Of a DNA stretch of 64,000 bases, positions 21,001-24,000 are shown in pieces. The DNA comes from a plasmid. Positions within the stretch are counted from its first letter, which is position 1, and every line of letters starts with the position of its first letter. Made by a program: the position numbers. The stretch lies in the NCBI RefSeq assembly GCF_056746865.1, contig NZ_JBWKMP010000005.1; one strand, given 5' to 3'.

Positions 21001-24000
21001 TCCCTCAAAAGAAGAGATCGGAATAATGCTTGAGTATTCCAGGGAAAAGTTTGGTGGTGTACTCAAACTTACCGGCTCTGAAGATTTCAAAAAAATGTGC
21101 GCTGAAGTTGCCGCAGAGCAGGACATGAAGATTATTTTACGCCCGGAGCAGTATCAACAGATGATGCTGGAATTAAAAGCAGAACTTCAGGGTAATAAGT
21201 TTGAGCAGGTGGAAACACAGGAAAATAGCCAGGAGTCCGAATCCAGAATAGAGAAAGGTGATGCATTGAAGGAACAGGCCACCGAACAGGAACAGGCTAC
21301 AGAGCAGGCACAGGCTACAGAGCAGGCACAGGCTACAGAACAGGCACAGGCTACAGAGCAGGCACAGGCTACAGAGCAGGAACAGGCCACCGAACAGGAA
21401 CAGGTCACCGAACAGGAACAGGCTACCGAACAGGAACAGGCTACCGAACAGGCACAGGCCACAGAGCAGGCACAGGCCACAGAGCAAGCACAGGTCGCAG
21501 CGCAGGCCACATCTTCATATGATCCTGGTGTTATTACCAGGGCAAACACCCTGGATTCACAGATGCTTAGTAAAGGCACAAATGGTGAATTTGGCTATTT
21601 GAAATCTCTGGATAGCGATGAAAATGAGATTTGGGAAGTGCTGGGACATGTACCTGGAGACAGCGATGATATTTTTGACGTTGCCAGTTTTGATAATGAA
21701 AACGACGCAAAAGAATTTTGCAAAATTGTGAATGAGTTAGGTATTGACAGAACACAGGCTCTGATTCAGGAGCAGCTTACTACTCAACACGATCAGGCTA
21801 CTGCGCAGGTGCATAATAAACAGGAAATTTATTGTATAAACTTTAGTCGCTTCCATGATTTGAATGAAGGTATCGTCTTTCATTCTAAAGATGCGGCTAT
21901 TCAGTGTTATGAGGAAAGCAAATCTTCTGCAATAGAAAAATATGAAAGCAATTATTTAAATGGTGATGGTTTTGATACTGTTGTGCTTATGTCTAAAACT
22001 GTCTCAACCGATGAATTATCCTCTTATCCAGAGGGGGCATTAGTAACGTTTGATAGGCCATTTGAAATAATTGCCAATTCATATGAAGAATACCGTACTC
22101 CAGTGTATGCGGTTTCTTTTTCGAAGGATGAGTTTAGTGAAGATATTAAGACTTTTGAGTCATTGCACGACGCATCTGAATATAAAAATAAGATGCTTCA
22201 GGAGCACGGGCTTAACCAGGATGATATCTTAATCACACCTGTAACAAGAGAAGAAATCGCCTTTAAAGGAATTAAGGACGCTGTTAATGACGCTAATATG
22301 GCAGTGATGGAACAGGCGGGGGATTCGTCCAGAGAATCACCAGAAGAGATACTCGCCAGTATTTCAGCTAACGAGCATATGATCTCCGGGCTTGAAAACT
22401 TCCTGGTTAAAGACCGTTCTCAGTTCAGTTCCTGCAATGGGGATATCGTTGTGGAGGCGGAAATTACCAGGGGGGAAGGTGGTCTTTATCACCTTGCGGT
22501 CGCTGGTAAGCATGGCTTAGAGCGTGGTGATGCAGTTGCCAGAGTGGATGTTACGGAGCAGCAATTTGCCGCGATCACTGGAAAAACACCTTCTGAAGTT
22601 TTAACGGGGGACCAAACATCGGCTCGTGTTCCGGTAATTACAGGTATCCATTTCAGTACAAGGGCTATTGAAAATGTGAATAAACTGGAACAACAGAAGG
22701 ATTATGTCTATTTCTCAACACATGAAGGCCTGAATGCTGAAATAAAAGATTTCAGCTCTCTCAAGGATGCTATTGAGTGGGGCCGGGTTGAATGCGAGCT
22801 ACATGATCTCAATAAGCGCGATACTGTCATTTATCGCGTCGAGTCTGAACATATTTCTCAGGGGATTGACGCTGTAATGAAAAATGCTGAACGCGTGGAG
22901 CGTCATGAAATTGAGAAAGCACAGGGACGGGATTGCACGCCGGAAGACGGCAAGATTCTTGAGGCAATTGATCGCTTTGAGGACAAGTTCAGAGGGGAAG
23001 GACTGAAGTTCGAAAGGGAGAAGGCCGAATCCGATTTGCTTAATCACGGATTCACTCGTGAAATGGCAGAAGATGCTCTTGGAAAACAATTTGTCCAGGC
23101 CAGAGAAGAACATCTGGAATTGCAGCAACAGCGTGACAATTCACAGGACATGCACTAATTAAGAAAAAAGCCCGGTTTTCGGGCTTTTTAAGAGCTGAAT
23201 TTACAATCCAAGTGCAACAAAAAAAGAAGTACTCATCAACTAGAATATAATTTTGTTTCCACACAAAAACCATTTCCAAATGATGAGTACTTCCTACCGA
23301 CATCTTACAATAAACGAGCGAGAAAAGATAATGATTTTACTCGCACAGGGCAAAAAACAAGCAGAAATTGCCAAAGCACTGGGACGTAGCTCCAGCACCA
23401 TTTCTCGCGAGCTGAAACGACACGCTCTAGAAAGCTACAGTGCAACGAACGCACAAAACAGCTATTTGAAGCATCGTCAAAATAGCAAAGCACAGCGCAA
23501 ATTAGAGCAGCCTGAATATTTCAATTTGGTGCAAGAAAAGTTTCTGACAGAAAACTGGTCGCCCGAACAAATCAGCGCACGATTAAAATTGGAAAAATCT
23601 GAATTATCCATTAGTTATTCAACCATTTATCGTGGTATTTATTCAGGGTTGTTTGATATAGGCGAACGCAAAGCCAGTCGCAAACTGCGCCACAAAGGCA
23701 AAACACGGCATACAAAAATCATCATGAAAAACGTGGCAAAATTCAGATATCCAACCATTTGAACGACCGTCCCATTTCGGCGCAAAATCGCAGTCGCTTT
23801 GGACATTGGGAAGCCGATACCGTACTGGGTAAAGCGGGTGGAGCTTGTTTGCTGACGCTGACGGAACGCAAAAGTCGTTTTGAGTTGGTGAAGAAAATTC
23901 CTGCCAAAAAAGCCGAAGCAGTCCAAAAAGCCATGATTGAATTGCTGGATTCACATATATTGCGGTCAATTACGCCAGACCGTGGTAAAGAATTTGCCCA

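What the first reader, a model, noticed from the sequence alone, without database searches (positions are those of the whole stretch)
21271..21505. Expandable 18-bp tandem repeat inside the relaxase gene
Seen in sequence: about 13 in-frame units encode EQATEQ/AQATEQ hexapeptides in the C-terminal extension of a 1437-aa MobP relaxase, which is far longer than the ~900-aa NikB I recall for IncI1. Inference: a disordered acidic linker whose copy number can change by slippage or recombination; the distal C-terminal domains may be translocated with the DNA.
Basis: partly seen in the sequence, partly recalled or inferred. Interest (0 to 1): 0.45.

Follow-up and report, generated by a model that had tools for sequence, protein, structure and literature searches.

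The report
Variable repeat linker in IncI2 relaxase
An 18-base repeat inside the DNA-transfer enzyme gene of an mcr-1 (colistin-resistance) IncI2 plasmid encodes a Glu/Gln/Ala/Thr spacer whose length ranges from about 5 to 19 units among closely related plasmids: a real, fast-changing, but fairly ordinary kind of protein-linker polymorphism.

Summary
An in-frame 18-bp tandem array (240 bp, 13.3 units, window 21272-21511) encodes EQATEQ/AQATEQ at aa 810-889 of a 1437-aa relaxase. The window is an mcr-1 IncI2 plasmid, not IncI1.

Copy number is highly polymorphic. In even-step samples of 523 plasmid records and 297 complete E. coli genomes, about 42-52% of records differ from the window. The 19 arrays I read span 4.7-18.7 units, and different lineages have expanded different unit variants. 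Two Shigella sonnei plasmids from one district differ by a 6-unit indel plus 3 point changes in 63 kb.

The array lies between the conserved relaxase+LPD7 core (about 800 aa) and a mosaic C-terminal region of small modules with no Pfam, PDB or fold match. Relatives all have a low-complexity linker at this place, and a few have their own unrelated repeats.

"Disordered" is not settled. Charge and hydropathy place the repeat on the disordered side, but AlphaFold2 models it as one long helix (pLDDT 62-90, with no alignment support there). Delivery of the C-terminal modules to the recipient follows from general relaxase biology and was not tested.

Best reading: a length-tolerant spacer resized by slippage or unequal recombination. 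It is a new member of a known kind (compare the TraD QQP repeats) and of modest interest.

The parts
18507..18848 (+). NikA/MobC-type relaxosome accessory protein (113 aa). Its stop overlaps the relaxase start.
   Evidence: Translation. Weak NCBIfam MbpA and VirD1 hits. Annotated as mobC in identical records. PF21983 NikA-like on the identical gene.
18845..23158 (+). Relaxase gene (NikB of IncI2; RefSeq name 'LPD7 domain-containing protein'), 1437 aa.
   Evidence: ORF, translation. 100% identical genes in IncI2 plasmids typed MOBP.
19001..19270 (+). Core of the relaxase nuclease domain (aa 53-142), including the PHIHIVIP histidine motif.
   Evidence: Pfam PF03432 i-E 0.0053. PF03432 is precomputed for many homologues. 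The motif is visible.
20915..21169 (+). LPD7 domain (aa 691-775), the end of the conserved core.
   Evidence: Pfam PF18821 i-E 5e-14. AF2 pLDDT 95-98. Conserved in all homologues.
21170..21271 (+). Non-repetitive polar linker (aa 776-809). Its first part continues the helix that follows LPD7; the rest is predicted disordered.
   Evidence: AF2 pLDDT below 50 for aa 794-820. The homologous position is 73% E/Q/A/T/P/S/D/N/K (median) in 99 relatives.
21272..21511 (+). The 18-bp tandem array: 13.33 units, aa 810-889, EQATEQ/AQATEQ.
   Evidence: All length variation among relatives maps here.
21512..21790 (+). Module M1 (aa 890-982), a small folded alpha/beta domain of unknown function.
   Evidence: AF2 pLDDT above 90 with alignment A2. 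Homologues occur in a few other relaxases and as stand-alone ORFs such as P0142. No PDB fold match. Absent in P0001-P0006.
21791..21808 (+). Orphan degenerate repeat unit GATCAGGCTACTGCGCAG (DQATAQ), in frame, directly after M1.
   Evidence: It is the only 18-mer outside the array matching a unit at 14/18 or better. The junctions of the M1-less alleles P0002 and P0003 fall in a unit at this point.
21821..22324 (+). Modules M2 (aa 993-1084) and M3 (aa 1085-1160), a folded alpha/beta region of unknown function.
   Evidence: AF2 pLDDT 77-95. Missing from L004, L008 and L009 and from about 60 of about 523 plasmid records. Stand-alone M2 homologue P0138.
22334..22894 (+). Modules M4 (aa 1164-1284) and M3' (aa 1285-1350; a weak paralogue of M3, by eye).
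   Evidence: AF2 confidence is low for M4 (no aligned homologues) and 58-75 for M3'. A self-BLAST gave no hit, so the M3/M3' relation rests on visual alignment and on alignment A5.
22901..23155 (+). C-terminal helical tail (aa 1353-1437), conserved across the relaxase family.

Best explanation
The array is a coding minisatellite (a variable-number tandem repeat). It encodes a hydrophilic, net-negative Glu/Gln/Ala/Thr spacer. The spacer separates the conserved working core of the IncI2 relaxase (nuclease domain, middle region, LPD7; aa 1-775) from a mosaic set of small C-terminal accessory modules.

Shown here: the array is in frame. Its length differs from 4.7 to 18.7 units among IncI2 plasmids. 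Changes occur on the time-scale of a handful of point mutations per 63 kb. Different lineages have amplified different unit variants. The flanks are invariant.

Inferred: units are gained and lost by slipped-strand mispairing or unequal sister-strand exchange between the exact repeats, during vegetative replication or during the rolling-circle and complementary-strand synthesis of conjugation. Because the unit is 18 bp, every such event keeps the reading frame, so the protein tolerates it. The peptide acts only as a length-tolerant tether, either flexible or partly helical, and most of the length variation is close to neutral. The same repeat units, including an orphan unit after module M1, also serve as homology patches at which C-terminal modules are lost or exchanged.

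From established biology: since the relaxase is piloted into the recipient covalently attached to the T-strand, everything downstream of the spacer is expected to go with it.
For: Array and reading frame.

Polymorphism in plasmids: in an even-step sample of 60 of 523 plasmid records, 34 match the window length. The rest have spans of 579-777 bp for the 735-bp query. By identity band, 303 of 523 records are at least 99% identical over the query, so about 42% differ.

Polymorphism in complete E. coli genomes: this independent sample gives spans of 579-831 bp, always on plasmids.

Location of the variation: all of it lies between invariant anchors.

Mutational events among closely related alleles, in unit code: window AMBNBBAOCCDHIF, L002 with one extra C, L003 with one B fewer, L001 AVCCDHIF (V is a unit type not seen in the window), L010 ACDHIF.

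Near-isogenic pair: pSH272-1 and pSH274-1 are identical over 63 kb except for a 108-bp (6-unit) indel and 3 point differences.

Substrate for slippage: exact tracts repeated at multiples of 18 bp are 35 bp long in the window and up to 152 bp in other alleles.

Lineage-specific amplification: runs of EQATEQ (L004, L009, L021, L022), of AQATEQ (L011, L012) and of AQVAEQ (L023, L024).

Constraint at peptide level: 24 distinct 18-mers encode only 7 peptides, and 13 different DNA units encode AQATEQ.

Position is a linker family-wide: the first 800 aa or so are conserved, followed by a low-complexity stretch in 99 of 99 full-length relatives. Unrelated short repeats sit at the same place in P0058 (ATPEQ) and P0104 (QTEPEQA).

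Module mosaicism around repeat units.

Not an RNA family: no Rfam family reaches its gathering threshold in window 17500-24500.

Opposite strand: the ORFs there translate to Cys/Ser/Val/Ala repeat peptide, a by-product of the repeat.
Against: AlphaFold2 does not predict disorder for the repeat. It predicts one 73-residue helix at pLDDT 62-90, so 'flexible tether' may be wrong in detail.

The peptide composition is conserved across many synonymous DNA variants. Arrays of quite different composition can have the same length (window and L024, both 13.33 units). Both points hint at some selection on composition or length rather than pure neutrality.

Some copy-number differences in public records could come from collapsed repeats in short-read assemblies. 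Draft contigs do break exactly at the array, and I could not check how each record was sequenced.

No functional or mutation-rate experiment exists in the literature I could search.
Confidence: 0.6

Rival explanations
1. The repeat is a stiff or semi-stiff single alpha-helix that acts as a tunable ruler. Each hexapeptide adds about 0.9 nm, so natural alleles would place the C-terminal modules 4-17 nm from the relaxase core. On this view length is selected, for example to reach a partner in the relaxosome or coupling-protein complex.
For: AF2 models aa 819-891 as one uninterrupted helix with pLDDT 62-90, whereas the neighbouring non-repeat linker has pLDDT below 50. Chou-Fasman mean P(alpha) is 1.23 against P(beta) 0.89, and the mean helix penalty is low at 0.34 kcal/mol. 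Three hexapeptides equal 18 residues, which is exactly 5 helical turns. Two arrays of different composition share the same length.
Against: The alignment used for the prediction has no homologous sequences in this region. From general knowledge, AF2 tends to draw helices for Glu/Gln/Ala-rich low-complexity sequence. The segment has 18 Glu and no Lys or Arg, so the i/i+4 salt bridges that define stable single alpha-helices are absent. It falls on the disordered side of the charge-hydropathy boundary. A four-fold natural length range (4.7-18.7 units) on plasmids typed as conjugative argues against a tightly tuned length.
Confidence: 0.25
2. The array is primarily a DNA-level element, such as a set of protein-binding sites, an iteron-like or oriT-associated repeat, or a recombination hot spot. 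On this view its coding capacity is incidental.
For: The repeat units do seem to act as homology patches. An orphan unit follows module M1, and M1-less alleles join at a unit.
Against: Sequence variation among units is concentrated at third codon positions, and 24 DNA variants collapse to 7 peptides, so the peptide rather than the DNA word is conserved. The array lies about 2.4 kb inside the gene, far from the nikA-upstream region where oriT is expected. Relatives have a low-complexity peptide at the same place with unrelated DNA. There is no Rfam match.
Confidence: 0.05
3. The apparent polymorphism is largely an artefact of assembling a 240-bp repeat from short reads, and the true copy number is nearly fixed.
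For: Draft contigs end one base before the array: an 808-aa 'partial relaxase' cluster has 865 member sequences, and contig AASSKI010000090.1 ends at ...GCATTG. The single pair pSH272-1/pSH274-1 could be such a case.
Against: Alleles differ in unit composition and order, not only in number. Examples are AQVAEQ runs in L023 and L024, EQATEQ runs in L004, L009, L021 and L022, and TQATEQ or AQTTEQ units in others. Collapse cannot create these differences, and some alleles are longer than the window's. The same length classes recur in unrelated records and in an independent set of complete genomes.
Confidence: 0.05

Closest known systems
QQP (Gln-Gln-Pro) variable repeat in the C-terminal extension of F-like coupling protein TraD
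   Same: An in-frame short tandem repeat in a conjugation protein. It encodes a Gln-rich low-complexity stretch inside an extension that links a conserved engine to a partner-binding region. Its length differs between related plasmids: 5 residues in F and 23 in R1 (PMC3245843). One extra 9-bp unit distinguishes two otherwise near-identical IncFII plasmids (PMC10237293).
   Different: It is a different protein (the coupling ATPase, not the relaxase), a different unit (9 bp/QQP against 18 bp/EQATEQ) and a different plasmid family. There is no sequence homology. The IncI2 array is longer and far more polymorphic in the data examined.
Polyvalent proteins of conjugative elements (Iyer, Burroughs, Anand, de Souza, Aravind 2017; PMC5512222)
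   Same: A large multi-domain protein of a conjugative element carrying an LPD-class domain (LPD7). It shows mosaic gain, loss and duplication of small modules between orthologues. Solo versions of the modules exist. It is expected to be delivered with the DNA.
   Different: No effector, antirestriction, methylase, primase or processing-peptidase domain could be recognised in the C-terminal 550 aa. The tandem-repeat spacer is not a feature described for that class.
NikB relaxase of IncI1 plasmid R64 (MOBP family)
   Same: A MOBP-type relaxase encoded directly after a small NikA-type accessory gene next to oriT. The gene name nikB is used for both in the literature (PMC9607333, PMC8868234).
   Different: From my own knowledge, R64 NikB is about 900 aa and lacks this extension. 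The IncI2 protein has LPD7, the repeat and about 550 aa of extra modules. Its transfer system is typed MPF_T (VirB-like) in PLSDB, not the IncI1 type.
Length-variable repetitive spacers of E. coli envelope and division proteins (TolA domain II, TonB Glu-Pro/Lys-Pro region, FtsK Pro/Gln linker). Recalled from memory, not tested.
   Same: Low-complexity repetitive segments that separate functional domains and tolerate length changes.
   Different: These are chromosomal proteins with other compositions and known spanning roles. No comparison was run here.

Membership tests
MOBP relaxase | N-terminal HUH-type nuclease domain with the histidine triad and an N-terminal catalytic tyrosine | tested here: met
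   Pfam PF03432 is weak (i-E 0.0053, aa 53-142). The PHIHIVIP motif and Tyr5/Tyr15 are visible in the translation. Many homologues carry PF03432. Related IncI2 records are typed MOBP by MOB-suite.
MOBP relaxase | Small accessory DNA-binding protein (NikA/MobC/TraJ type) encoded immediately upstream | tested here: met
   A 113-aa ORF at 18507-18848 overlaps the relaxase start. MbpA and VirD1 hits. NikA-like PF21983. Annotated as mobC.
MOBP relaxase | Site-specific nicking at oriT and covalent attachment to the T-strand | not testable with these tools
   Needs biochemistry.
Variable-number tandem repeat (coding minisatellite) | Head-to-tail copies with copy number differing among close relatives while the flanks stay constant | tested here: met
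Phase-variable contingency locus | Repeat changes switch the gene on and off by frameshift | tested here: not met
   The unit is 18 bp, and all 19 arrays read are multiples of 6 bp and in frame. The frameshift in pVT553 is a 1-bp deletion upstream of the array.
Intrinsically disordered linker | Low complexity, few hydrophobic residues, high net charge | tested here: met
   Composition Q26 A21 E18 T13 V2, net charge -0.225 per residue, on the disordered side of the Uversky boundary.
Intrinsically disordered linker | Predicted or measured lack of stable structure | tested here: inconclusive
   AF2 gives a continuous helix with pLDDT 62-90 for the repeat, but without alignment depth there. The preceding aa 794-820 have pLDDT below 50.
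Single alpha-helix (SAH) domain | Alternating acidic and basic residues giving i/i+4 salt bridges | tested here: not met
   There is no Lys or Arg in the 80 residues.
Polyvalent protein (PMC5512222) | Multi-domain protein of a conjugative element containing LPD-class domains, with mosaic architectures among orthologues | tested here: met
   LPD7 at 5e-14. Module presence and absence, and duplications, among homologues.
Polyvalent protein (PMC5512222) | Recognisable effector, antirestriction or processing domains; delivery into the recipient | tested here: not met
   No Pfam or NCBIfam hit in the C-terminal 557 aa. No PDB sequence or fold match. Delivery itself is not testable here.

The most novel reading that the evidence does not exclude
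The EQATEQ units are more than a tolerated spacer. On this reading they are the joints of a cassette system. Repeat units, including the orphan unit after M1, flank small C-terminal modules and let the relaxase swap, lose or duplicate cargo domains by homologous recombination. The cargo would consist of so far unrecognised establishment or anti-defence effectors carried into the recipient on the relaxase. Spacer length would then tune how the cargo is presented or threaded through the type IV channel.
Probability: 0.12. Interest if true: 0.6.

Novelty: new member of a known kind. Interest (0 to 1): 0.3.

Why it matters
IncI2 plasmids are the main vehicle of mcr-1, and their backbones are almost identical, so a locus that changes faster than point mutations has practical uses.

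- It is a ready-made high-resolution marker for tracing plasmid transmission.
- It is a known trap for assembly. Hundreds of draft assemblies truncate the relaxase at residue 808, exactly at the array, which can mislead relaxase typing and plasmid reconstruction.

On the biological side, the array marks the boundary between an invariant relaxase engine and a rapidly reshuffled C-terminal region. That region is expected to enter the recipient with the DNA, and its modules have no known fold or function. If those modules turn out to be establishment or anti-defence factors, the boundary would be the place to engineer or study them.

The repeat itself is an unsurprising type of feature.

Tried and rejected
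Function of the C-terminal modules. Every search was uninformative:
- Pfam on aa 881-1437 found nothing better than E 0.57.
- NCBIfam found nothing.
- A PDB sequence search returned only a low-complexity hit on the repeat.
- A search of 1.84 billion representative proteins with the C-terminal 550 aa returned only 29 hits, all fragments or relatives of the same relaxases plus a few stand-alone small ORFs.
- Foldseek against the PDB found no hit below E 0.1 for either AF2 model.

Alignment problems. MAFFT placed the M1, M4 and M3b homologues on the wrong modules in alignments A1, A3, A4 and A5, even with short anchor sequences added. Those rows were dropped. As a result M4 and M3' were modelled essentially from a single sequence and came out at low confidence. 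A self-BLAST of the C-terminus found no internal repeats, so the M3/M3' relationship rests on visual alignment only.

Literature. Searches for IncI2, nikB and relaxase with repeat terms, for LPD7, and for relaxase tandem repeats found no description of this array.

Readings rejected:
- Phase variation: the unit is a multiple of three.
- A structured RNA: no Rfam hit.
- Genes on the opposite strand: the ORFs at 21173-21487 and 21187-21579 are repeat by-products encoding a Cys/Ser/Val/Ala repeat peptide.
- A single alpha-helix (SAH) domain: no basic residues.
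Full report
WHAT IS THERE

The window is an IncI2 conjugative plasmid of Escherichia coli type that carries mcr-1.
- The 4314-bp ORF 18845-23158 is 100% identical to genes in about 60-kb plasmids that PLSDB types as IncI2, MOBP, MPF_T.
- MCR-1 (541 aa) and its PAP2 neighbour lie just downstream, as the literature describes for IncI2 plasmids (PMC9607333, PMC8868234).
- The ORF encodes a 1437-aa protein, preceded by an overlapping 113-aa NikA/MobC-type gene.
- Pfam finds a weak relaxase nuclease match (aa 53-142, E 0.005) and a clear LPD7 domain (aa 691-775, E 5e-14). It finds nothing in the last 557 residues.

THE OBSERVATION

Tandem Repeats Finder reports 21270-21494, period 18, 12.5 copies, 91% matches and no indels. 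Using the invariant flanks GDALK and SSYDPG as anchors, the array is 21272-21511: 240 bp, 13.33 units, aa 810-889.

It encodes EQATEQ and AQATEQ, with single EQVTEQ and AQVAAQ units. Identity at lag 18 is 0.913, against at most 0.43 in 500 codon shuffles of the gene. The peptide is Q26 A21 E18 T13 V2 with no basic residue.

The only correction is that the plasmid is IncI2, not IncI1.

COPY NUMBER AMONG RELATIVES

I searched a 735-bp probe (the array plus about 250 bp on each side) against 72,556 plasmid records. It matched 523 records.
- In an even-step sample of 60, 34 had the window's length.
- The other full-length matches had spans of 579, 591, 597, 609, 627, 663, 681, 687, 705, 706, 717, 741, 753 or 777 bp.
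- By identity band, 303 of 523 records were at least 99% identical over the probe.

The same probe matched 297 of 5,426 complete E. coli genomes, always on plasmids, with spans from 579 to 831 bp.

I fetched 18 variant loci, which with the window makes 19 arrays. In every case the flanks are unchanged and the difference lies in the array. The arrays range from 84 to 336 bp, or 4.67 to 18.67 units.

Coding each distinct 18-mer as a letter shows simple events among closely related alleles:
- window: AMBNBBAOCCDHIF
- L002: one extra C
- L003: one B fewer
- L001: AVCCDHIF, where V is a unit type not seen in the window
- L010: ACDHIF

More distant lineages have amplified different variants. There are runs of up to ten EQATEQ, seven or more AQATEQ, or ten AQVAEQ.

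Two Shigella sonnei plasmids from the same district, pSH272-1 and pSH274-1, are identical over about 63 kb except for a 108-bp (6-unit) indel in the array and three point differences. So the array changes about as fast as, or faster than, point mutations accumulate on the whole plasmid.

One caveat applies. Repeats of this size can collapse in short-read assemblies. Draft contigs do end exactly at the array: an 808-aa 'partial relaxase' cluster has 865 member sequences, and one contig ends at ...GCATTG, one base before the first unit. Collapse cannot explain alleles that are longer than the window's, or that differ in unit composition and order. The polymorphism as a whole is therefore real, although individual records may be wrong.

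WHAT CONSTRAINS IT

The unit is a multiple of three, so slippage never breaks the frame. In-frame conservation is therefore not evidence of selection.

There is constraint on the peptide, however. The 24 distinct full-length 18-mers encode only 7 peptides. Thirteen different DNA units encode AQATEQ. The most variable positions are third codon positions.

No Rfam family reaches its gathering threshold in window 17500-24500. The long ORFs on the opposite strand are by-products that translate to a Cys/Ser/Val/Ala repeat peptide.

WHERE IT SITS IN THE PROTEIN

Homologues found in a 5.8-billion-protein collection share the first 800 residues or so (37-100% identity, 54-69% of the query covered) and then diverge. 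In 99 full-length relatives, the 60 residues that follow the motif ending LPD7 are 73% E/Q/A/T/P/S/D/N/K (median) and 13% bulky hydrophobic residues. Two relatives have their own unrelated short repeats at this place: ATPEQ in an Aeromonas protein and QTEPEQA in another.

The position is thus a linker throughout the family. A long, regular array is a speciality of the IncI2 lineage.

After the array comes a chain of small modules, which I labelled M1, M2, M3, M4, M3' and a conserved helical tail.
- The modules are mosaic. M1 is absent from P0001-P0006. M2 and M3 are absent from L004, L008 and L009, and from about 60 of about 523 plasmid records.
- M1 and M2 also exist as stand-alone small ORFs.
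- Other relatives carry two or three tandem copies of larger modules.
- The only 18-mer elsewhere in the gene that resembles a repeat unit (14/18) is an in-frame orphan, DQATAQ, at 21791-21808, directly after M1. In two M1-less alleles the junction lies in a unit at exactly this point.

The repeat units therefore also look like the homology at which modules are lost.

STRUCTURE

I ran AlphaFold2 on aa 680-992 with a hand-checked alignment (A2). It gives:
- LPD7 at pLDDT 95-98;
- aa 794-820 below 50;
- the repeat (aa 819-891) as one continuous helix at 62-90;
- M1 above 90 as a three-stranded sheet with helices.

The alignment contains no homologues over the repeat. From general knowledge, AF2 readily draws helices for Glu/Gln/Ala-rich sequence. 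Simple measures disagree with one another. Helix propensity is high (Chou-Fasman 1.23). But the segment has -0.225 charge per residue, no basic residues, and lies on the disordered side of the charge-hydropathy boundary. I therefore cannot say whether the spacer is a coil or a partly stable helix.

As a helix, natural alleles would span about 4-17 nm. As a coil, they would span about 4-9 nm rms.

HOW IT MOST LIKELY WORKS

Shown: this is an in-frame, rapidly resizing array at a family-wide linker position, bounded by invariant sequence, with lineage-specific amplification of unit variants.

Inferred: unit gain and loss occur by slipped-strand mispairing or unequal exchange between exact repeats (35 bp in the window, up to 152 bp elsewhere). 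The peptide serves as a length-tolerant tether between the relaxase core and its accessory modules. Most length variation is near neutral, with selection mainly keeping the stretch polar and free of hydrophobic residues.

From established knowledge: relaxases travel to the recipient covalently bound to the transferred strand and must unfold to pass the channel (PMC10359608). Polyvalent proteins of conjugative elements are thought to be delivered with the DNA (PMC5512222). The C-terminal modules are therefore expected to be co-delivered, but that was not tested here.

The rivals are a length-selected helical ruler, a DNA-level element, and an assembly artefact. They are weighed in their own section.

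COMPARISON WITH KNOWN THINGS

The nearest described analogue is the QQP repeat in the C-terminal extension of F-like TraD. Its length differs between F and R1 (PMC3245843), and it can differ by one 9-bp unit between near-identical plasmids (PMC10237293). It is the same kind of feature in a different protein, with no homology.

The protein as a whole fits the loose definition of a polyvalent protein (LPD7, mosaic modules) but lacks any recognisable effector domain. It is a MOBP relaxase by motif, neighbour gene and external typing.

I found no description of this array in the searchable literature.

VERDICT

'Disordered' is unproven. Co-translocation is plausible but untested.

It is a new member of a known kind of feature. 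It has practical value as a typing marker and as an assembly trap for mcr-1 plasmids. It also points to an unexplored, fast-evolving C-terminal region of the IncI2 relaxase.

Noticed in passing
window 21257-21272; L020 3300-3424: Short-read draft assemblies break exactly at the left edge of the array. An 808-aa 'relaxase, partial' cluster (P0007) has 865 member sequences, and contig AASSKI010000090.1 ends at ...GGTGATGCATTG, one base before the first unit. The repeat therefore truncates the IncI2 relaxase in many public drafts.
   Followed up: yes
window 21512-21808: Module M1 is bracketed by the array on one side and by a single in-frame orphan unit (GATCAGGCTACTGCGCAG, DQATAQ) on the other. 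Alleles lacking M1 (P0001-P0006) have only 1.5-4 units, and in P0002 and P0003 the junction lies in a unit. This suggests repeat-mediated deletion of the module.
   Followed up: partly
window 21821-22324; L004, L008, L009: About 60 of about 523 IncI2 plasmid records lack modules M2+M3 (464 records match that DNA, against 521 for M1). In the three such loci I read, M1 joins M4 through a short Gln/Glu-rich stretch (...HEQLSSQQEQAAVQETYQESPEEILASIS).
   Followed up: partly
P0142 (107 aa), P0145 (143 aa), P0138 (149 aa): Modules M1 and M2 of the relaxase C-terminus also occur as stand-alone small proteins in public data. Their genomic context was not examined.
   Followed up: no
P0022, P0025, P0032, P0041, P0064, P0075 (homologous relaxases): Other members of the family carry two or three tandem copies of much larger units (roughly 90-190 aa modules) after LPD7. 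Duplication in the C-terminal region therefore happens at several scales.
   Followed up: no
window 22901-23155: The last 85 residues or so (RHEIEKAQGRD...EDGKILEAID...GL.F.R...) are conserved across relaxases whose intervening modules differ completely, and are predicted helical (pLDDT 82-90). This tail is a candidate docking or secretion signal, but that was not tested.
   Followed up: partly
window 23253-24253: The IS30-family (ISApl1-like) transposase between the relaxase and mcr-1 is split into two ORFs in different frames. The 169-aa ORF matches profile positions 1-106 and the 164-aa ORF matches 121-267. This suggests a frameshifted, probably inactive, copy or a sequencing error.
   Followed up: partly
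window 23166-23190: A GC-rich hairpin followed by a T run (AAAAAAGCCCGGTTTTCGGGCTTTTT) lies just after the relaxase stop codon. It may correspond to the conserved palindrome that PMC8868234 reports downstream of nikB, next to most mcr-1 insertions. I did not compare the sequences.
   Followed up: no
window 18209-18247 and 18314-18343: There are two short arrays with a 12-bp period (GTTTTGTGGGTT and TGTGGGTCATTA) in the non-coding stretch upstream of nikA, where oriT is expected.
   Followed up: no
L011 (NZ_KU870627.1 pVT553); L022 (NZ_CP122885.1): pVT553 has a 1-bp deletion just upstream of the array that puts the rest of the relaxase out of frame. The ETEC1716 plasmid relaxase is annotated as frameshifted. 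These are either real pseudogenes or errors near the repeat.
   Followed up: no
L016/L018 around position 32,400-32,470 of the records: Apart from the repeat indel, the only differences between pSH272-1 and pSH274-1 outside the relaxase gene are two point differences at the start of, or just before, the pilV shufflon adhesin gene.
   Followed up: no
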